This document shows, piece after piece, positions 9,733 through 64,000 of a DNA stretch of 64,000 nucleotides. A program made the position numbers and the translations under genes. Where the stretch lies: sequence record PP430345. One strand, 5' to 3'. Source of the stretch: Escherichia phage vB_EcoM-LTH01. Each line of letters begins with the position of its first letter. The first letter of the stretch is position 1. Below the pieces are notes generated by a model that worked only from the letters and a program-made list of their open reading frames with translations, was not told the DNA's origin and did not search any database.

Positions 9733-10040
9733 CTTATCCTACGGTCACACAAGTCTGACCATCTATCTCTGAGCAAGGGATTTCAAAATGTCTCCCGTCC
9801 CCAAATACATCTCGCCACATAGTCTATTCGGAAGCGGGAGTCTATGCACACCCCTTGCGGTAAGTGACCTCACTTTGAGATCAGCATCTTCCTTATTCGA
9901 CGAGTTAAATTCTCTTTAAGGTAGCCAGTGTTCGCAGCACTAACTATGAGGTATCCGTAAGATGATTTCAGTCATCTACCGAAAAATTACACCAAGCAAC
10001 TACCTTAAAGAGAACTTCTTAGTAAAGGCCCTTGCGAGCC

Positions 10041-10421
10041 TTAATCTTCACCTTCTGCCATTTTATACTCACGAATCTGAGTAGTTAATGGAATAGCATC
10101 TTTAAATGCATCAGAAGGGCCTTGATGAGTTTCTGAATTTGCAGAAGTAGTTCCTCCTGCCAGATCCTCTTCATTATCTTCCATTGTGTACAGATTGTTT
10201 GCCTTTTCAGCTTGCTCAAGAATATACTTCGCAGTAGTTTCTTTAACTTTCTCTGTACCGGAAGTCAGTAGACCTTCCAGAGTTTTAATTGCTTGAGGAG
10301 TAAGTCTTGCAAACTCGGAACGAGCATGAAGAATTGCTCTCTCAGTATTGATTGCAATGCTTTCCTCTGTAGTAGGCCGACCGCGTTTTCGAGTAACGAT
10401 TTCAGCTTTAGCCATAAACAC
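10041..10421 (-). CDS. hypothetical protein with AT-hook-like KRGRP motif
   Basis: 126-aa ORF inside the tRNA region; N-terminal RKRGRPTTEE. Confidence 0.4.
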   Translation of the reverse strand: MFMAKAEIVTRKRGRPTTEESIAINTERAILHARSEFARLTPQAIKTLEGLLTSGTEKVKETTAKYILEQAEKANNLYTMEDNEEDLAGGTTSANSETHQGPSDAFKDAIPLTTQIREYKMAEGED

Positions 10422-10607
10422 CTCAATTCAGTCGATATAACTATATTAGCAGTATAATAGGATTATGTCAAGAACTTATTGAAATGTATTAAGAAATGAA
10501 ATGGGGGTGCGCCGTTTCTGCTGTAATCTACGTCGTTATCGTTGAGGGAACTCGTAGTCAGGGAACATCAGTCCGACGACTTATCGGGAGCGACCCGACT
10601 TCTTATG

Positions 10608-10682
10608 TGGTGGCCCTGGGTGGAATCGAACCACCGTCTGGCGATTATGAGTCGCTTGCTTGAACCGTCCAGCTACAGGGCC
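10608..10682 (-). tRNA. tRNA-Met (anticodon CAT)
   Basis: Acceptor GGCCCTG/CAGGGCC, anticodon loop CTCATAA, T-arm GGTGG-TTCGATT-CCACC, CCA encoded. Confidence 0.75.
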
Positions 10683-57532: not shown

Positions 57533-58672
57533 ATGTTAGAGATGATGAACTTAGGTTCTGTCGAATTGCCAGAAGTGGAAGGTAACGTTAAGAAATTCGC
57601 CGCCGGAGGTACGGGGATTGTTGTACTTATGAAATCCGGCAACGCCTACGGTATCGGAGATCAATACTTCAGCGGTACAGGGGGGAATGTTACAACATGG
57701 AGGCTTCTGGCAAGAAACGTTGCAGATATATGGGCTGCAACTGGCTCTGTGCTTATGAGGACAACCGCAGATAGATGGTTGTTTATGGGGTTTAACCAAT
57801 ATTTTAATACTGGTTTTGGAACTACGATAACCACCCCCAGAGATATAACTACAGATATGCCTATACCCGAAGGATTTGAGATCAAGCAGTTGGTACTCGG
57901 GTATCGTAACTTGGCTGTTGTCTTTACCAATGGGCGGTATGCAATGTGCGGGACTAATAACGCAGGAGGTCTGGGGACAGGGGACACTTTTGCAGTAAGA
58001 ACCTTAACCTTAAGAACTGACTTCACAAACGTTGAAAAAATAGATCTTGATTGGGCAACCTACGACACATCTTATCTTCTTACCCAAGCTGGTGAAGTTT
58101 ATGTATCAGGTGTTTCAAATAATGGACAAAACGGGACAACTTCAAACACTACAACTTGGTTTAGGCAAAGCCCAATTAGTGGTGGTACGGTAGTTGACAT
58201 AATCGCGACAACGCTTGGGTTTTTTAGGGTTGTACTTTTAAATGGTAATTACTACGTCTACGCACAAGGGCGAAGTTCGTCAGGGAGTCTTGGGGTAAAT
58301 AACTCAGGTAACATAAACGTTCTTTCACCCTCATTGGTATTTTCTAATGTACCTTCAAGACCTCCTTTGTACATTGGTCACCTTAGCGCCCGTATTCTCC
58401 ACCCCGAAGAAAGGGTATACTATACAGGGGCGGCTACGGGTAGTTTACAAGGAGCAGGTGCACAATTTCAGTCGTCGTATTCAGTATTTACACGGCTTGC
58501 AGAGACTGTACCGTATGGTGGAGAATATTCATCCCTAAAAGGTGGCTATGTTGCACACTACTATGTAGATAAAGGAAACCTATATGGTGTCGGTAATAGC
58601 AGTGCAGGATTGCTCCCAGGTTACATAGGTACACAACTCTTCGAATTTACACCGTTGGAATTGCCGGAGTAA
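57533..58672 (+). CDS. RCC1-like beta-propeller repeat protein (paralogue 3)
   Basis: MLEMMNLG; near-collinear with paralogue 4 (FMGFNQYFNTGFGTT, TLTLRTDFTNVEKIDLDW). Confidence 0.55.
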   Translation: MLEMMNLGSVELPEVEGNVKKFAAGGTGIVVLMKSGNAYGIGDQYFSGTGGNVTTWRLLARNVADIWAATGSVLMRTTADRWLFMGFNQYFNTGFGTTITTPRDITTDMPIPEGFEIKQLVLGYRNLAVVFTNGRYAMCGTNNAGGLGTGDTFAVRTLTLRTDFTNVEKIDLDWATYDTSYLLTQAGEVYVSGVSNNGQNGTTSNTTTWFRQSPISGGTVVDIIATTLGFFRVVLLNGNYYVYAQGRSSSGSLGVNNSGNINVLSPSLVFSNVPSRPPLYIGHLSARILHPEERVYYTGAATGSLQGAGAQFQSSYSVFTRLAETVPYGGEYSSLKGGYVAHYYVDKGNLYGVGNSSAGLLPGYIGTQLFEFTPLELPE

Positions 58673-58694
58673 AAAACTTCAAAAGGGGAATTAA

Positions 58695-59846
58695 ATGTTA
58701 GAAATGATGAACTTAGGCACTGTTAAACTTCCTGCGGGAGGAGGCAGGGTCAAGAAGTTTGCAGCGGGGCAACAAGGCATCGTTGTACTTATGGAGTCTG
58801 GGAAACTCTATGGTCGCGGAAGTCAGTATTTTAGTGGTACAGGGTCTACTGTAAACACTTGGAAACTGCTAGGAACAGATATCGCAGACGTATGGACGGG
58901 TCCCGTATCAACTCTTGCAAGGACAACAGACGACAGATGGTTGTTTATGGGATTGAACCAATATTTTAACACTGGTTTTGGGACAACATGGTCCGCGCTG
59001 ACGGATGTTACAGTGGATATGCCTATCCCTGTTGGCCTTACGGTTAAGCAGGTAGTGATGGGATACATAAACGTTGCAGTAGTCTTTGCAAATGGACAAT
59101 ATGCCATGTGTGGGACAAATGTCTCCGGTGGATTGGGTGTTGGTAACACATCACCTGTGAGAACCTTAACATTAAGGACCGATTTTACGAACGTGGAGAA
59201 GATAGACCTCGATTGGGGGACATATGATACCTCCTATCTTCTTACCCAAGCTGGTGATGTTTATGTGGCCGGACAATCTTCTTATGGTCAAAACGGAACA
59301 CAGTCTAGCTCCACAACTTGGTTCAGGCAAAGTTCAGTTAGCGGCGGGACAGTGGTAGATATAGTTGCAACAACCTTAGGGTTCTTCAGGATCGTTCTTT
59401 CATCAGGGAGTTACCGAATATATGCGCAAGGGAGGGACATAAACAATAGTCTTGGAACTAACACCACAAGCAACACACCTCGACTGGCCCCTGTATTAGT
59501 TCTTTCGGGAATAGCAAGTGCAGTAAGACCAAGGGTATATATCAGTCACTATGCTGCCCGAGTTATAGATAGCGATGGAGTAGTATACTTTACAGGACAA
59601 GGGACGGGAGATCTACAGGGTGTTGGGACCACACCTCAACCAACGTATCGTGTTTTTTCACAGCTTGACCCAATAGTTCCGTCCGTAGGTGATTATTTTT
59701 CCACAAGATCTCAGTACCTGACTAACTATTATTTGGAAGATGGTGTTCTGTATGGTGTTGGTCAGGGTGCTCAAGCAACACAGTTACTACCTGGTTATGG
59801 AACGACACAGGTTCTGACTTTCTCTGTTCTGGAATTACCGGAATAA
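58695..59846 (+). CDS. RCC1-like beta-propeller repeat protein (paralogue 4)
   Basis: MLEMMNLG; closest to paralogue 3. Confidence 0.55.
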   Translation: MLEMMNLGTVKLPAGGGRVKKFAAGQQGIVVLMESGKLYGRGSQYFSGTGSTVNTWKLLGTDIADVWTGPVSTLARTTDDRWLFMGLNQYFNTGFGTTWSALTDVTVDMPIPVGLTVKQVVMGYINVAVVFANGQYAMCGTNVSGGLGVGNTSPVRTLTLRTDFTNVEKIDLDWGTYDTSYLLTQAGDVYVAGQSSYGQNGTQSSSTTWFRQSSVSGGTVVDIVATTLGFFRIVLSSGSYRIYAQGRDINNSLGTNTTSNTPRLAPVLVLSGIASAVRPRVYISHYAARVIDSDGVVYFTGQGTGDLQGVGTTPQPTYRVFSQLDPIVPSVGDYFSTRSQYLTNYYLEDGVLYGVGQGAQATQLLPGYGTTQVLTFSVLELPE

Positions 59847-59886: not shown

Positions 59887-60056
59887 TACCTATCGCTTCA
59901 CAGAACGCATCGTAACGACCTAAACTGACTAACCTACCCGAATGTATACCCTACTTAAATAACCTCGTGAGAAGCCTTCTAAGAGGCTTTAAAAAGTTCT
60001 TGCATTCTCCCATTTTGTCCTGTACATTAAGTTCATCAACTAAACAGGAGGCTAAC

Positions 60057-60221
60057 ATGACACCACAAGAAAAATACTTTGACCTAATGGCAATGATCGA
60101 GGCATACGCAAACGCTGTTTCTGACTTCGAGGATAAACCTTGGGACAGGGATAAAGTACGGAAAGTGGCGACAATGCACACAGAATTACAAGAAAAGGTT
60201 GCAGAGTACACCGGAAACTAA
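60057..60221 (+). CDS. hypothetical small protein
   Basis: Start at ATG 60057 after ACAGGAGG. Confidence 0.4.
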   Translation: MTPQEKYFDLMAMIEAYANAVSDFEDKPWDRDKVRKVATMHTELQEKVAEYTGN

Positions 60222-60256
60222 TATACTGGGCATATCAAATCAAAGAGGAGAACAAA

Positions 60257-60724
60257 ATGTACAGCTTAACAGTCTATCGTCGTGAATTTCCTGAACATAC
60301 ATCCAGCTATTTCTTTGCTTTCTGCACCCCTGATCGTAAAGAACTGATCCAGAAGCTTGCAGATGAGATGTTCAAAGAAGCCTTAGCTCAGGATTATGAC
60401 ATTTCTAAAGGGGTTAGCTACTATACTAACTGGAATGATTTTATCGTCGGCATTGATGGCTATATGGGTGCTTGCTGGTCAAGTGGCAAGACTGCAACGC
60501 CGGAATGTTTAGAACTCGACGACAAAATCGATGCTATTCTGGCAGAGGCATATGATATCTCTGAGCAAATGCTGAAAGATAAGTATGGCGAACTTCTTAA
60601 AGAGGTGCAAGAAGAGCGCAATCAAGAAGCAAAAGCAAAACTTCTGGCATTGATCGAAGAATATGAAATTCCTTTCGACCAAGCCGTTGAAAACATTCAG
60701 AAATTAATCATTAGCAAAAAGTGA
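60257..60724 (+). CDS. hypothetical protein
   Basis: 155-aa ORF with AGAGGAG RBS. Confidence 0.45.
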   Translation: MYSLTVYRREFPEHTSSYFFAFCTPDRKELIQKLADEMFKEALAQDYDISKGVSYYTNWNDFIVGIDGYMGACWSSGKTATPECLELDDKIDAILAEAYDISEQMLKDKYGELLKEVQEERNQEAKAKLLALIEEYEIPFDQAVENIQKLIISKK

Positions 60725-60734
60725 GGAGGTTATA

Positions 60735-61019
60735 ATGGAAAAGAAACGTCGTGCGGGTATGTTAGATAATCAATTTTTCTGTCCATTTAAGTTCCATGCG
60801 GAGTATAATCGAGGAGAATTTGAGATGAACGCTACTAATCTGGCAAGCATTCAAGAGGTGATCTACGGTGATGGTCACGTAGAGTACATCTTTTGGGATG
60901 AGTCAGACCTCGCTATGCCAGCAGGGTTTACTCTGGAAGATGCAAAGACCTCATTCCGTACTTATTGCACAGATTACCTCGGTGATCCTAAGCCAGTGGA
61001 CTTCTATGACTGGAAATAA
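60735..61019 (+). CDS. hypothetical protein
   Basis: 94-aa ORF with GAGGAGG RBS. Confidence 0.45.
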   Translation: MEKKRRAGMLDNQFFCPFKFHAEYNRGEFEMNATNLASIQEVIYGDGHVEYIFWDESDLAMPAGFTLEDAKTSFRTYCTDYLGDPKPVDFYDWK

Positions 61020-61338
61020 AGACAACCCGAACGCCCTTTGGGAGAATTGTGACTACCTTTTATGGCCTAACTGGTATCATTACTTGACTTATGGCATTAT
61101 CTTAGTGTTAATCGCATCCGTCGCCGTACTGTCGGCTATGGAGCAACTACGATGACTGCTGGGGTAGTGATCGCGCTACCACTACTGATACTGGCGTTCT
61201 CCATGATTATGGTGGACATTATGGAGAAAGGACGATGAATCACACTGACACAAAGAAGGGTCAGTGGGGCACTTGGTGAACACTTAACATCAGGGTTTAA
61301 ATCATAATTACCCTATCGACAATAAAGAGGAAATTACT

Positions 61339-61548
61339 ATGAAAACTGTACGCATTGAAGACGTTGATTTCGACGAAACCGAGGTTAGCATCAAGAAGTC
61401 TGGGATCGGCAACCTCGTCTCTGTAGACTTCAATCCCGATGAATATGAAGAAGGAAATACATTAATGTATTATACACCAGAGGCAGCACGTAAGCTTGCG
61501 GCAGCACTTATCACCGCAGCAGACGAAGCAGAGCAGGGTGAGAAGTGA
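61339..61548 (+). CDS. hypothetical protein
   Basis: 69-aa ORF with AGAGGA RBS. Confidence 0.4.
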   Translation: MKTVRIEDVDFDETEVSIKKSGIGNLVSVDFNPDEYEEGNTLMYYTPEAARKLAAALITAADEAEQGEK

Positions 61549-61673
61549 GATATGAACATTTACGAAATGGTAACAGTTGAGCACGTCCTGTTTGACCTTA
61601 ATAACGGATACATTAACGTTTGTTGCGGTGATACATTAACTTCAATTGTTAAATTGGAAATTGAAGATTAGAT

Positions 61674-61868
61674 ATGGTATACCGTACATTTGAAGAATGG
61701 AAAAAGAAAGGTCGTGTCGTCGTAAAAGGAGAGGAAGCTGCGGGATTCCTTAAGGACGGCACGGCATTGTTCTCTAAAGAGCAGACAAAGAAAACACCAA
61801 CTAAATTATACACTCACAACCAAGGGTACGACTCATGGTACATGGGTGATGAGTATGAATACTATTGA
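61674..61868 (+). CDS. hypothetical protein
   Basis: 64-aa ORF. Confidence 0.4.
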   Translation: MVYRTFEEWKKKGRVVVKGEEAAGFLKDGTALFSKEQTKKTPTKLYTHNQGYDSWYMGDEYEYY

Positions 61869-61879
61869 TAAGAGGTAAT

Positions 61880-62116
61880 ATGGCACACTATAACTTTCAA
61901 GAAATTAAAAGAGGTGCATACTTCGGTCATGTGGACGGCCCTAATGACGAAGTGTTCAGGAAATCGGGGACGTTTACGTTCTACGATGTTAAGAGCAAAG
62001 ACTGTCTGGACATTCGAGAGACGACTTGGAGACATAACTTCAGTAGTGATGAACGTCCTTTCGTGTTGGCACAGGTAGAAATTAAGGTCGATATCACTTG
62101 GAGGCCGGAATGGTAA
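61880..62116 (+). CDS. hypothetical protein
   Basis: Start at ATG 61880. Confidence 0.4.
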   Translation: MAHYNFQEIKRGAYFGHVDGPNDEVFRKSGTFTFYDVKSKDCLDIRETTWRHNFSSDERPFVLAQVEIKVDITWRPEW

Positions 62117-62496
62117 ATAAAATCGCACATCGTTGGAATGGTACACGTAAATCTTTGGCAGAAGAGGCCGAAAGGCGTAAAGAACAAGAGGAGAAGATTG
62201 TTTCTGGCTCTGTACGTAGGATCTATATAGAACCGAAAGATAAGAAGGTAATTTATGACGGAACAGAGGCGCAATTTGTCTACGAAATAGCTAAGAAGGA
62301 TGCAGATGCCCTTGGGTTTACTCAGAGCTACCTTGAGTATGCCTACGATAATGGAATTGAATCTATCATCCTTCAAGAAGATAAAGATAAATCTCAATAC
62401 AAGTCAGTAAAAGCACAGAGCTACAGAATTGTTAAGCTTGTCAATCTATTTGACATTGACAATCCAACGTATGCCCTCAGACGACTGGCTGTATGA
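62110..62496 (+). CDS. hypothetical protein
   Basis: Start at ATG 62110 after GGAGG; last plus-strand gene before the non-coding repeat region. Confidence 0.4.
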   Translation: MVNKIAHRWNGTRKSLAEEAERRKEQEEKIVSGSVRRIYIEPKDKKVIYDGTEAQFVYEIAKKDADALGFTQSYLEYAYDNGIESIILQEDKDKSQYKSVKAQSYRIVKLVNLFDIDNPTYALRRLAV

Positions 62497-62568
62497 TCCT
62501 GAACTACAGAGAGCACCCCAAAAGTGGGTGCTTTTTGCATCTGGATTGCAACCAAACTCATCTGCTCA

Positions 62569-62650
62569 TCCCAAAATGTTGTACACCTCTCCAAAATGTT
62601 GTGCCCACCAAACTATATAGTCCTTCCAAACTGTTGTACTCCAGCTACAA
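62569..62650. repeat. three copies of CCAAA(A/C)TGTTGT(A/G)C-type direct repeat
   Basis: Copies near 62570, 62591, 62636. Confidence 0.6.
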
Positions 62651-63162
62651 TAATGCCCAAATATCGTACAACGATTCCCACAAATATCGATTCATCCCAA
62701 AATTAGGTAGTTTGCCTAAAGAGTAACCACTACTTGGCCTACTGAGGCGCATCTTTTGCCACAGAGTTACCTCCCTTCCCTATACATCCATCCCTCATAG
62801 TTTAGAATTTCCAGTATATGTCTACTCTGAGTGGACCTCCATCATGAATTTTAAACGACAACTTTTTAGTTTTTATACCCTCCCGCCAAAATTTTGAGTC
62901 ACCTCTTATGGGGTATGCCGCCTGTGAATATCCCACAAAATATCTCACAGGTCATAAAATATACCTCCCCGCCAAATTTTATGATGGATACTCCACGGGG
63001 GTGGGTCCATTATTTATCCTGCCCAAATATATCTAAAGGGGGTAGCCTAAAGAGGCTCGCCAGTAGTGTCCCTTGACCTTGTTCCTCGTCAGCAAGAAAG
63101 AAGAGGATGTTTGCATCTTTTTTGTTGAGTGCGTTGGCACTGTTGCCAGGCACGGCGACCGT

Positions 63163-63183
63163 GGGGGAGGGGGAGGGGGTCGG
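63163..63183. repeat. polypurine tract GGGGGAGGGGGAGGGGG
   Basis: Read directly; a second purine-rich run GGGAGAGAAGAGAGAAGAGAG lies near 63593-63613. Confidence 0.6.
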
Positions 63184-63675
63184 ATGTTTTCAAAATATCC
63201 AGGAAGTCAAGCATTATTTCTATTTATTTTCAATCCACAATACATCTTTGATTCGACTTGTCAAGAAAAATGTTGTGCTCTTCCAACAATAAAGTTAAAG
63301 ATTTCTATTGACTTCTGAATCTGATTTAGAATACTGATTTCAATCTGCATTTAACATAATACAACTTATACGCACTACAAGCGACTTGCAAGCGCCCTTC
63401 TTCCAGTCCAACAAGTGAGGCGACCTCAAGCCCCGCCAGGTCTGGCCCCTTCCAACTTGTGAGAAGAATAATCCCAACTTGTTACTATCCAACTGTGAAT
63501 TATTCCAACTGTACAGAAGCGACTCCATCAGGGCCATCAATAGCCTGAGCGCCCCGCCATACTCTGGCAATAAAAGCAAGAAAAAATTTATTTTGGGAGA
63601 GAAGAGAGAAGAGAGTTTTACCTAGCAATATTCTATTGTCTGTTCATTCTGTGGGCAAGTAACAGCCTTTTACGG

Positions 63676-63726
63676 CCTCTTTGTGTACTGTGCATCCTCT
63701 TTGTGTACCCTACAGCCTCTTTGTGT
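63676..63726. repeat. 3 x CCTCTTTGTGT direct repeats at 20-bp periodicity (iteron-like)
   Basis: Copies at 63676, 63696, 63716. Confidence 0.8.
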
Positions 63727-64000
63727 GGTCACACTAACGGCCTTCCTATTGACTAGCTATTCACTTTATATGAATAACAAAGCATTAAATAATTCAATAT
63801 TATCTTCGATAATGTATTGACAAAAGATAAAAGATTACTACAAGTAGACACTATAAAACGAGGAAACGAAGAGAACAGATAGCAACAATCTGTTTCGTTG
63901 ATATCGGTTATCACCGATGACCGCATAGCGGTAGGAGGGGTATACTCGTTTTATAGTGTCGCTCCCTACGGTCGCGCCACCTCCATACTCTGGCAATGGT

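What the first reader, a model, noticed from the sequence alone, without database searches (positions are those of the whole stretch)
62500..64000. 1.5 kb non-coding, repeat-dense region at the right edge of the window
After the last plus-strand ORF, coding density collapses into several short repeat families: CCAAAATGTTGT(A/G)C x3, CCCGCCAAA(A)TTTT x2, CCAACT(T)GT x4 (63440-63515), CCTCTTTGTGT x3 at 20-bp period, CCATACTCTGGCAAT x2 (63558, 63983), polypurine tracts, and the palindrome ATCGGTtatcACCGAT near 63910. Such architecture is characteristic of packaging, injection-stop or terminal-repeat regions in T5-like phages, or of a protein-binding origin.
Basis: partly seen in the sequence, partly recalled or inferred. 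Interest (0 to 1): 0.6.

Follow-up and report, generated by a model that had tools for sequence, protein, structure and literature searches.

The report
Phage genome ends: short terminal repeat
This gene-free, repeat-rich stretch is most likely where the phage's linear chromosome begins and ends: a roughly 470-bp sequence carried at both ends of the packaged DNA, flanked by short repeat arrays, a layout already reported for related rV5-like phages.

Summary
The window comes from a Septuagintavirus-like member of Vequintavirinae. Positions 62497-64000 are the left ~80% of a ~1.8-kb ORF-free gap between two convergent gene blocks; this is the unexplained "non-coding" box of the rV5 genome map.

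Comparative data explain its core. Window 63149-63622 (474 bp) is homologous to an exact 462-bp repeat at both ends of the closest relative's record (UPEC06). Homologous boundaries delimit the annotated 459-bp repeat of phage Gotham, the ends of three other Vequintavirus records, and the 514-bp terminal repeat of Klebsiella phage KPP-1, which was found by PhageTerm and 2x coverage. A 458-bp terminal redundancy is published for Vequintavirus.

The region is therefore best read as the concatemer junction: right-end spacer, direct terminal repeat (DTR), left-end spacer. Repeat arrays flank the DTR as in T7.

Two parts appear undescribed. One is a 27-nt box inside the DTR, near-invariant across genera. 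The other is a 16-22-bp inverted repeat plus GC hairpin just outside it, with full covariation in 10 lineages.

The "terminal repeat/packaging" reading is supported. The "T5-like", "injection stop" and "origin" readings are not. This is a new member of a known kind, of modest interest.

The parts
62507..62537 (+). Terminator hairpin closing the last plus-strand gene (AGAGAGCACCC-CAAAAGT-GGGTGCTTTTT). An A/G-rich 5' flank pairs with the U-tract, so it could act in both directions.
   Evidence: Fold of 62497-62550: -21.6 kcal/mol, z = -3.3. Invariant in the five aligned Septuagintavirus-like sequences (window plus four relatives).
62540..62760 (+). Right-end spacer, conserved part. It is a C-rich, G-poor array of short repeats: CCAAAATGTTGTRC x3 (62571, 62591, 62626), related CCCAAATATCGTAC (62656) and CCCACAAATATCG (62679), and the first CCTAAAGAG (62715).
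   Evidence: G minus C is -13 to -18 per 100 nt. Nearly invariant among relatives.
62761..63148 (+). Right-end spacer, indel-rich part. It holds a duplication found only in this phage (CCCGCCAAA units at 62874-62894 and 62960-62980), the second CCTAAAGAG (63046-63054), and a weak hairpin plus T-run (GGATGTTTGCATCTTTTTTG, 63105-63124).
   Evidence: Alignment A1 shows large indels here. A5-4 and A7_1 carry ~250 extra nt, and W70 carries an HNH endonuclease gene. CCT[AG]AAG[AT]G occurs only twice in 64 kb, both times here or just upstream.
63149..63622 (.). Homologue of the direct terminal repeat (DTR) of the virion chromosome. The left end reads GGCACGGCGACCG... and the right end reads ...GAGAGTTTTACC; it is 474 bp here and 459-463 bp in relatives.
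   Evidence: An exact 462-bp copy lies at both ends of the UPEC06 record, mapping to 63149 and 63622. Homologous edges occur in Gotham (repeat_region 1-459), bov11CS3, bov25_3, ECP2303 and KPP-1. This is the most conserved block of alignment A1.
63191..63199 (+). CAAAATATC, conserved 42 nt from the left chromosome end in every genus examined.
63237..63264 (-). Sigma-70-like promoter match (TTGACA-16-TATTGT, 10 of 12) pointing leftward towards the left chromosome end.
   Evidence: Invariant among relatives. Function not shown.
63308..63375 (+). TTGACT (63308-63313) followed 35 nt later by Box A, ATTTAACATAATACAACTTATACGCAC (63349-63375). Box A is a 27-nt element that is near-identical across genera.
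   Evidence: The pattern search found it in 16 viral contigs, including CR3, phiTE, PVP-SE1, Av-05 and Erwinia phages. It lies 170-217 nt inside the DTR in all genera with known or predicted edges.
63407..63515 (+). YCCAAC(T)TGT array (5 copies) inside the DTR, around a GCCAG...CTGGC hairpin at 63435-63448.
63557..63571 (+). Direct repeat copy 1, CCATACTCTGGCAAT, 51 nt before the right DTR edge.
   Evidence: Each genus has its own ~18-nt repeat pair in this neighbourhood.
63595..63629 (+). Right-edge context: a polypurine run (63595-63615), then TTTTACC | TAGCAAT, with the chromosome end falling between 63622 and 63623. Other genera have TTGACA + 17-19 nt purine-rich spacer | TAGCAAT or TGACA here.
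63645..63726 (+). Left-end spacer array directly after the DTR: CATTCTGTGGGCAAG, then CCTCTTTGTGT x3 at a 20-bp period. More TCTTTGTGG copies follow beyond the window edge in relatives.
   Evidence: rV5 has 6-9 CTGTT[TC]AC copies at the same relative position.
63818..63823 (+). TTGACA, 23 nt upstream of the Box B stem. The -10 region (TACAAG) is poor.
   Evidence: A TTGAC[AT] at the same spacing occurs in several but not all genera.
63847..63976 (.). Box B. A perfect 16-bp inverted repeat (63847-63862 with 63945-63960) encloses three small hairpins, one of which is the palindrome at 63903-63918. A conserved G-rich...GTATAC motif follows, then a GC hairpin with a 3-nt loop (63960-63976).
   Evidence: Folds on both strands give z = -4.2 and -3.8. 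Covariation is shown. The 35-nt core hits Seunavirus, Avunavirus and Cronobacter phages.
63983..63997 (+). Direct repeat copy 2, CCATACTCTGGCAAT, directly after Box B.

Best explanation
The region is the junction between the two ends of the phage chromosome. Replication makes head-to-tail concatemers. In these, the gene-free right end (62497-63148), one copy of a ~470-bp direct terminal repeat (63149-63622) and the gene-free left end (63623 to about 64330, beyond the window) lie side by side. The window shows exactly this layout.

By analogy with T7-type phages, the terminase recognises signals here and cuts at two fixed sites: before GGCACGG at 63149, and after TTTTACC at 63622. The repeat is then duplicated, so each packaged chromosome carries it at both ends.

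The short repeat arrays on either side of the repeat, and the near-invariant Box A inside it, are the likely protein-recognition sites. Box B, just outside the repeat, is a conserved hairpin-forming element of unknown role.

Shown: homology of 63149-63622 to sequences duplicated at record ends, and agreement of the boundaries across genera. Inferred: that this phage's own virion DNA ends there, the cutting and duplication steps, and the role of each repeat family.
For: (1) UPEC06, 86-92% identical to the window, carries an exact 462-bp repeat at both record ends. It maps to 63149 and 63622.
(2) Homologous edges recur independently. Gotham has an annotated repeat_region 1-459. The bov11CS3 and bov25_3 records start at the same left edge, and ECP2303 ends at the same right edge.
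(3) In Klebsiella phage KPP-1, the 514-bp repeat measured by 2x coverage and PhageTerm (PMC9862379) lies inside the homologous gap with matching edges. The left edge is 42-43 nt before CAAAATATC and the right edge is just 5' of TAGCAAT.
(4) Korf et al. report 458-bp terminal redundancies for Vequintavirus EdH4 and HdK5 (PMC6563267).
(5) The repeat coincides with the most conserved block among close relatives, and its length is 459-463 bp in eight of the nine related sequences measured (567 bp in A73, which has a partial duplication of the right end).
(6) The array - repeat - array layout matches T7, read directly from its sequence. CCT[AG]AAG[AT]G occurs only left of the repeat here, and 2-6 times on the same strand in the gap to the left of the repeat in rV5, PVP-SE1 and pangalan (rV5 has one further copy just inside the last gene). 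T7 has CACCTAAAGAGGG about 70 nt before its right repeat.
Against: No reads or virion DNA of this phage were available, so its own ends are inferred from relatives. UPEC06 is labelled a partial genome, and how its ends were determined is not stated. PVP-SE1 and phiTE were described as terminally redundant and circularly permuted (PMC3475682). PhageTerm called several Vequintavirus isolates circularly permuted or headful (PMC8407724, PMC13211470). No Seunavirus record starts or ends at the predicted edges. The roles assigned to the repeat arrays, Box A and Box B have no experimental support.
Confidence: 0.8

Rival explanations
1. The region is a cluster of phage non-coding RNA genes. Box A and Box B would be transcribed from the nearby TTGAC[AT] elements, and Box B would fold as an RNA with a long closing stem. 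This could coexist with the terminal-repeat role.
For: TTGAC[AT] sits at a fixed distance upstream of Box A and of Box B in several genera. Box B folds well, z = -4.2. Its stem shows full covariation. The GC hairpin also shows compensatory changes (window C-G versus PVP-SE1 G-C; rV5 converts the mismatched pairs to Watson-Crick pairs).
Against: No Rfam family matches, even at E <= 1, in the window or in seven related gaps. The -10 regions are poor. rV5, PVP-SE1 and KPP-1 lack a TTGAC[AT] at that spacing upstream of the Box B arm that forms the stem, and rV5 has a terminator-like hairpin there. The stem is purely Watson-Crick, with no G-U pairs in 183 pairs. The opposite strand folds equally well, and the interior is indel-rich even within the genus. 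That pattern fits a DNA-level inverted repeat better than an RNA. No clear terminator follows Box B.
Confidence: 0.25
2. The region is the phage replication origin. Short iterons (CCTCTTTGTGT x3 at a 20-bp period, the CCAAC array) and AT-rich blocks with divergent promoters would bind an initiator and open the DNA.
For: Phased direct repeats and AT-rich blocks of about 70% A+T (my estimate from reading 63195-63345 and 63750-63850; not computed) are present. Promoter-like matches point in both directions. In an unrelated uncultivated phage contig (L144), three Box A copies sit between perfect DnaA boxes and next to 22-bp iterons.
Against: DnaA-box-like 9-mers are only modestly more frequent here than in the window's coding part (2.7 vs 1.2 per kb, no perfect match). 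No initiator gene adjoins the region. It lies between convergent, not divergent, transcription units. The repeat families differ between genera while the terminal-repeat edges are conserved. The rV5 authors could not separate skew changes from changes in transcription direction (PMC3606486).
Confidence: 0.15
3. The outer parts of the gap are termination buffers between convergent operons. Each intrinsic terminator would be followed by a C-rich, G-poor stretch acting as a Rho loading site for read-through transcripts. This may coexist with the packaging role.
For: Coding strands are G-rich (skew about +0.2), but the first ~500 nt after the plus-strand terminator have G minus C of -13 to -18 per 100 nt. 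The mirror pattern (+14 to +22) follows the minus-strand terminator in A5-4. The trend holds, more weakly and with interruptions, in rV5, phAPEC8 and Av-05.
Against: This is composition only. It does not explain the high sequence conservation of 62593-62750, the exact repeats, or the conserved CCT[AG]AAG[AT]G motif. Rho activity during this infection is unknown.
Confidence: 0.3
4. The phage packages by the headful mechanism and is circularly permuted. The region would then be only a pac site or an ordinary spacer, and the record-end repeats in relatives would be assembly artefacts.
For: Published statements of circular permutation exist for PVP-SE1 and phiTE, and PhageTerm calls of circular permutation or headful packaging exist for some Vequintavirus isolates (PMC3475682, PMC8407724, PMC13211470). 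Most deposited genomes pass straight through the gap.
Against: De Bruijn assembly overlaps are no longer than the k-mer, not 459-462 bp. Independent records from three genera share homologous edges to within 1-2 nt. KPP-1 shows a 2x coverage plateau exactly there (PMC9862379).
Confidence: 0.1

Closest known systems
Short terminal redundancy of Vequintavirus (458 bp in EdH4/HdK5, PMC6563267; 459-bp repeat_region in the vB_EcoM_Gotham record MT682716)
   Same: Same genomic position, in the ORF-free gap between convergent blocks. Same edge contexts: the left end starts GGCGGAC or GGCACGGCGAC 42 nt before CAAA(A)TATC, and the right end falls after ...TTGTC or ...TTTTACC just before TGACA or TAGCAA. 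Box A lies inside in both.
   Different: The sequence between the conserved boxes has diverged beyond megablast detection. The window version is 474 bp and lacks a clean TTGACA before its polypurine run. Ends have not been measured for this lineage.
514-bp direct terminal repeat of Klebsiella phage KPP-1 (Mydovirus, PMC9862379)
   Same: The measured repeat (2x coverage, PhageTerm) lies in the homologous gap with matching edges, and contains CAAAATATC, a Box A variant and the TTGACA-polypurine-TAGCAAT element.
   Different: Different genus and host. The KPP-1 gap also carries Fur-box-like sequences that are absent here.
The 'non-coding' box of the rV5 genome map (PMC3606486)
   Same: The same ORF-free interval between genes 163 and 164, at the meeting point of two convergent transcription units.
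   Different: The rV5 paper gives it no function, and found no terminators there with its criteria.
Bacteriophage T7 chromosome ends: 160-bp terminal repeat flanked by arrays of CCTAAAG-type short repeats
   Same: Layout of array, repeat, array. C-rich short repeats spaced 12-20 nt apart. The 9-mer CCTAAAGAG lies shortly before the repeat at the right end. A leftward host promoter lies near the left end (A0 in T7; the 63264-63237 match here).
   Different: This is an unrelated virus family (podovirus with its own RNA polymerase), with a three-fold shorter repeat. There is no sequence homology beyond the short motif. The role of the T7 arrays is, to my knowledge, also unsettled.
T5 long terminal repeats and injection-stop region
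   Same: Both are repeat-dense, non-coding sequence associated with chromosome ends.
   Different: T5 repeats are about 10-11 kb and carry genes (PMC6563267). Here the repeat is ~0.47 kb and gene-free. There is no evidence of two-step injection or nicks, and the phage belongs to Vequintavirinae.
phiTE pseudo-ToxI antitoxin-mimic RNA (PMC3475682)
   Same: A non-coding repeat element in a Vequintavirinae genome.
   Different: It lies next to the tRNA genes (phiTE 106,714-106,772), not in this gap. No ToxI-like sequence occurs here.

Membership tests
Phage chromosome with short direct terminal repeats (fixed ends, T7-type class) | The same sequence is present at both ends of the linear virion DNA | not testable with these tools
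   No reads or virion DNA are available for this phage. In the closest relative's record (UPEC06), the homologous 462 bp are present identically at both ends.
Phage chromosome with short direct terminal repeats (fixed ends, T7-type class) | Fixed, sequence-specific boundaries shared by related phages | tested here: met
   The edges in UPEC06, Gotham, bov11CS3, bov25_3, ECP2303 and KPP-1 fall at homologous positions: 42-43 nt before CAAA(A)TATC, and just 5' of TAGCAA or TGACA.
Phage chromosome with short direct terminal repeats (fixed ends, T7-type class) | Two-fold read coverage over the repeat, with read-start peaks at its edges | not testable with these tools
   Reported for KPP-1 only (PMC9862379).
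Phage chromosome with short direct terminal repeats (fixed ends, T7-type class) | The repeat and its flanks are non-coding and sit where genome units join | tested here: met
   ORF-free, with no protein-family hits, between convergent gene blocks.
T5-like long terminal repeat / injection-stop region | Terminal repeat of about 10 kb that carries pre-early genes | tested here: not met
   The homologous repeat is 459-514 bp and gene-free. Taxonomy is Vequintavirinae.
Headful (pac) packaging with circular permutation | No fixed chromosome ends | tested here: inconclusive
   Fixed, homologous record ends in three genera argue against it. Published reports for PVP-SE1, phiTE and some Vequintavirus isolates argue for it (PMC3475682, PMC8407724).
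Iteron-type replication origin | Three or more phased direct repeats next to an AT-rich unwinding element | tested here: inconclusive
   CCTCTTTGTGT occurs 3 times at a 20-bp period near an AT-rich block. The repeat is genus-specific, and related motifs are scattered.
Iteron-type replication origin | DnaA boxes or an adjacent initiator gene | tested here: not met
   There are only four 1-mismatch DnaA-box-like 9-mers and no perfect one, a density of 2.7 per kb against 1.2 per kb in the window's coding part. Neighbouring genes are small hypothetical proteins.
Described RNA families (Rfam 15) | Match to a covariance model | tested here: not met
   No match at E <= 1 in window 60000-64000. Only three chance-level hits turned up in seven related loci, none read as falling on Box A or Box B.
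Type III antitoxin mimic (pseudo-ToxI) | Tandem ~36-nt ToxI-like repeats | tested here: not met
   No ToxI-like sequence occurs in the gap. The phiTE locus lies by its tRNA genes.
Rho-dependent terminator (rut region) | A long C-rich, G-poor stretch downstream of the gene in the direction of transcription | tested here: met
   G minus C is -13 to -18 per 100 nt over 62497-63000, mirrored on the other flank in A5-4. Rho dependence itself is not testable here.

The most novel reading that the evidence does not exclude
Box B (63847-63976) and Box A (63349-63375) may be previously undescribed cis elements required for end formation in a whole group of large myoviruses. Box A would be the terminase recognition site inside the repeat. 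Box B would be a DNA hairpin or cruciform (or a structured RNA made from the first DNA to enter the cell) that directs or primes duplication of the terminal repeat. Box B's architecture is kept in at least 10 lineages, including Phapecoctavirus, which belongs to a different subfamily, while its sequence has turned over almost completely.
Probability: 0.3. Interest if true: 0.6.

Novelty: new member of a known kind. Interest (0 to 1): 0.35.

Why it matters
Most deposited genomes of this phage group are treated as circularly permuted and opened at arbitrary points. Their gap ORFs are annotated as hypothetical proteins.

Recognising that the gap holds fixed ends with a ~460-bp repeat has practical consequences. 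It corrects genome coordinates and removes spurious genes. It also bears on transduction risk for therapeutic rV5-like phages, because fixed-end packaging is generally considered less prone to generalised transduction than headful packaging.

It also turns the long-unexplained rV5 "non-coding" box into a defined set of testable elements: two cut sites, Box A, Box B and the flanking arrays. The resemblance to the T7 end layout, including the shared CCTAAAGAG motif, could help address what such arrays do.

Tried and rejected
- Rfam scans of the window edge and of seven related gaps found nothing relevant.
- The phiTE pseudo-ToxI lead failed: that locus lies by the tRNA genes, and no ToxI-like sequence occurs in any gap.
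- Fur boxes are enriched in the gaps of phiTE (18/19 match), CR3, PVP-SE1, Av-05 and phAPEC8, but absent from the window and from A5-4.
- DnaA boxes showed only a modest, unconvincing enrichment.
- A loose pattern for the Box B tail against viral contigs returned only chance hits in GC-rich contigs.
- A scan of metagenome contigs for the left-end sequence likewise returned only chance hits.
- A neighbour-gene search in viral contigs gave only 3 loci.
- Exact-protein look-ups gave four further related contigs that include the whole gap, but none ends at a repeat edge. One Logan contig instead breaks inside the Box B palindrome.
- The Seunavirus search found no record ending at the predicted edges.
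- MAFFT broke the register of the stem alignment, so pairs were counted by script.
- Reading Box A or the Box B arm as ordinary sigma-70 promoters was rejected, because the spacings and -10 hexamers do not fit.
- A broad literature search was uninformative, and no paper on function of this gap was found.
Full report
**Observation**

The last plus-strand ORF ends at 62496 and is followed by a strong hairpin with a T-run at 62507-62537. From there to the window edge no ORF exceeds 93 codons. Six candidate ORFs hit nothing in Pfam or PHROGs.

- CCAAAATGTTGTRC x3 (62571, 62591, 62626)
- the CCCGCCAAA pair
- four CCAACT(T)GT copies
- CCTCTTTGTGT x3 at a 20-bp period
- CCATACTCTGGCAAT x2
- the polypurine run and the G-run
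- the palindrome at 63903-63918

These are more than chance. The 15-mer pair has 0.13 matches expected. No shuffle reached the observed CCTCTTTGTGT count. Seven of the ten plus-strand matches to CCAA[AC]N0-1TGT in the 64 kb fall in this 1.5 kb.

**Context**

The only near matches are five Vequintavirinae coliphages: A5-4, A7_1, A73, W70 and UPEC06, at 86-92% identity. Four of them were described as the Septuagintavirus clade (PMC11370258). The window phage itself is not in the collections searched.

In these relatives the ORF-free stretch is about 1.8 kb. It runs about 330 nt past the window edge and then meets the 3' ends of minus-strand genes. It therefore lies between convergent gene blocks.

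The same gap exists in rV5 (2.6 kb), PVP-SE1, Av-05, TH18, KPP-1, phiTE, CR3 and, in another subfamily, phAPEC8. The rV5 paper draws it as a grey box labelled "non-coding" and gives no function.

**What the core is**

The UPEC06 record begins and ends inside this gap. Its two ends carry an exact 462-bp direct repeat that maps to window 63149-63622.

Independent records show the same edges:
- Phage Gotham has an annotated repeat_region at 1-459.
- bov11CS3 and bov25_3 start at the same left edge.
- ECP2303 stops at the same right edge.
- For Klebsiella phage KPP-1, a 514-bp terminal repeat was measured from a two-fold coverage plateau and PhageTerm at 116,316-116,829 (PMC9862379). This lies inside its homologous gap.
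- Korf et al. report 458-bp terminal redundancies for two Vequintavirus isolates (PMC6563267).

The edges agree in all three genera. The left end (GGCACGGCGAC, GGCGGAC or GACGGAC) lies 42-43 nt before a conserved CAAA(A)TATC. The right end falls just 5' of TAGCAA(T) or TGACA, after a purine-rich run that in most genera follows a TTGACA by 18-19 nt.

Among the five aligned Septuagintavirus-like sequences (the window plus four relatives), this interval is the most conserved block of the gap, while both flanks are indel-rich. Its length is 459-463 bp in eight of nine related sequences; A73 reads 567 bp because of a partial duplication. It is 474 bp here because of a 12-nt tandem duplication after Box A.

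I therefore read 63149-63622 as the homologue of the direct terminal repeat, and the whole gap as the concatemer junction. That this phage's own DNA ends there is an inference from relatives.

**Anatomy around the repeat**

*Left of the repeat.* A C-rich, G-poor spacer carries the CCAAAATGTTGTRC family and two copies of CCTAAAGAG. These are the only two matches to CCT[AG]AAG[AT]G in the 64 kb. The same motif occurs 2-6 times, on the same strand, in the gap to the left of the repeat in rV5, PVP-SE1, pangalan and others; rV5 has one further copy just inside the last gene.

*Right of the repeat.* Each genus has its own short-repeat array. Here it is CCTCTTTGTGT x3; in rV5 it is CTGTT[TC]AC, 6-9 copies.

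*Comparison with T7.* T7, read directly from its sequence, has the same layout: a 160-bp repeat with CCTAAAG-type arrays on both sides. It even has CACCTAAAGAGGG about 70 nt before the right repeat. This is a resemblance in design, not evidence of common descent.

*Inside the repeat.* The only strongly conserved element is Box A (63349-63375). This 27-mer is near-identical in at least eight lineages and lies 170-217 nt from the left end.

**Box B**

About 225 nt right of the repeat lies a perfect 16-bp inverted repeat (63847-63862 with 63945-63960). A conserved G-rich...GT(T)A(C) motif follows, then a GC hairpin with a 3-nt loop, then the second CCATACTCTGGCAAT copy.

The same architecture occurs in ten lineages with stems of 15-22 bp. 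In the outer 15 positions, 150 of 150 cells are Watson-Crick pairs, although the arms are only 45% identical between lineages. Every position shows 2-4 pair types, and none of 2000 permutations of the 3' arms among lineages reached the observed pairing. The GC hairpin also shows compensatory changes.

Four observations favour a DNA-level hairpin or cruciform over a classical RNA, without excluding an RNA:
- The stems contain no G-U pairs.
- Both strands fold equally well.
- The interior varies even within the genus.
- Several genera lack a promoter-like element upstream.

One caveat applies: I defined the stems as perfect runs, which biases against finding G-U pairs.

**How it most likely works**

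By analogy with T7-type phages, whose terminal repeats are used in replication and packaging (PMC4283147), the terminase would bind signals in this junction and cut at the two fixed sites. The repeat would be copied so that each chromosome carries it twice.

Box A and the flanking arrays are the natural candidates for recognition sites. Box B is a candidate structural signal. These assignments are inferences.

The C-over-G bias on the side facing each incoming operon also fits Rho loading sites that would shield the junction from read-through. That role would not conflict with packaging.

**Conflicting evidence**

PVP-SE1 and phiTE were described as circularly permuted (PMC3475682). PhageTerm called some Vequintavirus isolates permuted or headful (PMC8407724, PMC13211470). 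No Seunavirus record ends at the predicted edges. A ~0.46-kb repeat is easily missed by restriction mapping or with transposase libraries (my assessment), but lineage differences remain possible.

**Rejected leads**

- No Rfam family matches.
- The phiTE pseudo-ToxI RNA lies by the tRNA genes, not here.
- Fur-box-like clusters occur in other genera's gaps but not in this one.
- DnaA boxes are not convincingly enriched.

**Verdict**

The feature is a new member of a known kind: short direct terminal repeats are already reported for Vequintavirus and Mydovirus. What appears undescribed is the conserved fine structure, namely the edge contexts, Box A, Box B and the T7-like arrays. Interest is modest.

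Noticed in passing
L142 (phiTE), L137 (CR3), L003 (PVP-SE1), L004 (Av-05), L147 (phAPEC8) gaps: Fur-box-like sequences cluster in the homologous gaps of other genera, at roughly 2-4 sites per kb with at least 14 of 19 matches, against 0.125 per kb in this window. Examples are GATAATGATTCTCATTATC (18/19) in phiTE and GATAATGATAATCATTCCC (17/19) right after Box A in CR3. They are absent from the window and from A5-4. This could mean iron-regulated transcription or Fur titration in those phages.
   Followed up: partly
L144 3440-3670 (IMG/VR contig 3300007609_000041; also L133): An uncultivated phage with no match in the phage collection carries three Box A copies, one of them inverted. They sit between perfect DnaA boxes (TTATCCACA x3) and are followed by 22-bp iterons. 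This looks like a replication origin and hints that Box A may have a role beyond packaging.
   Followed up: partly
L150 2170-2652 (W70), homologous to window ~62900-63100: Phage W70 carries a 160-aa HNH_3 endonuclease gene (Pfam E = 5e-13) inserted in the right-end spacer of the gap. It is probably a homing endonuclease.
   Followed up: yes
L149 ~2650-2800 (A73), homologous to window 63550-63622: A73 has a partial duplication of the right end of the repeat (CCATACTCTGGCAAT...polypurine) separated by 49 unrelated nt. Its gene numbering restarts there (A73_264 then A73_1). This may be an assembly or circularisation artefact at a physical end.
   Followed up: no
window 62874-62980 and 63376-63392: Two small tandem-type duplications are specific to this phage. 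One is an ~86-nt unit carrying the second CCCGCCAAA motif. The other is a 12-nt duplication (CAAGCGAC/CAAGCGCC) just after Box A, which makes the repeat 474 bp rather than ~462 bp.
   Followed up: partly
window 57533-59846 and upstream; L166, L170-L178: Tandem paralogous genes of 377-399 aa with WD40/RCC1-like repeat hits (PF25390) lie a few kb left of the gap. Their copy number varies between relatives (two to four).
   Followed up: no
window 9235-10682 (minus strand): A cluster of five tRNA genes (Gln, Gly, Pro, Tyr, Met). The phiTE pseudo-ToxI RNA lies in the corresponding tRNA region of that phage.
   Followed up: no
L001, L002, L148-L150, L153 gap annotations: Deposited records annotate 2-7 short 'hypothetical proteins' inside this gap, including inside the terminal repeat. 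They differ between records, and the window's equivalents hit no protein family, so they are probably spurious calls.
   Followed up: partly
L007 3143-3161 and 3441-3459 (rV5); L003 2452-2475 and 2533-2552; L142 +668 and +762 from Box A: Each genus has its own ~18-nt direct repeat pair, with one copy directly after the Box B hairpin and the other upstream, sometimes inside the Box B loop. In the window it is CCATACTCTGGCAAT. The two copies change together between genera. No explanation was found.
   Followed up: partly
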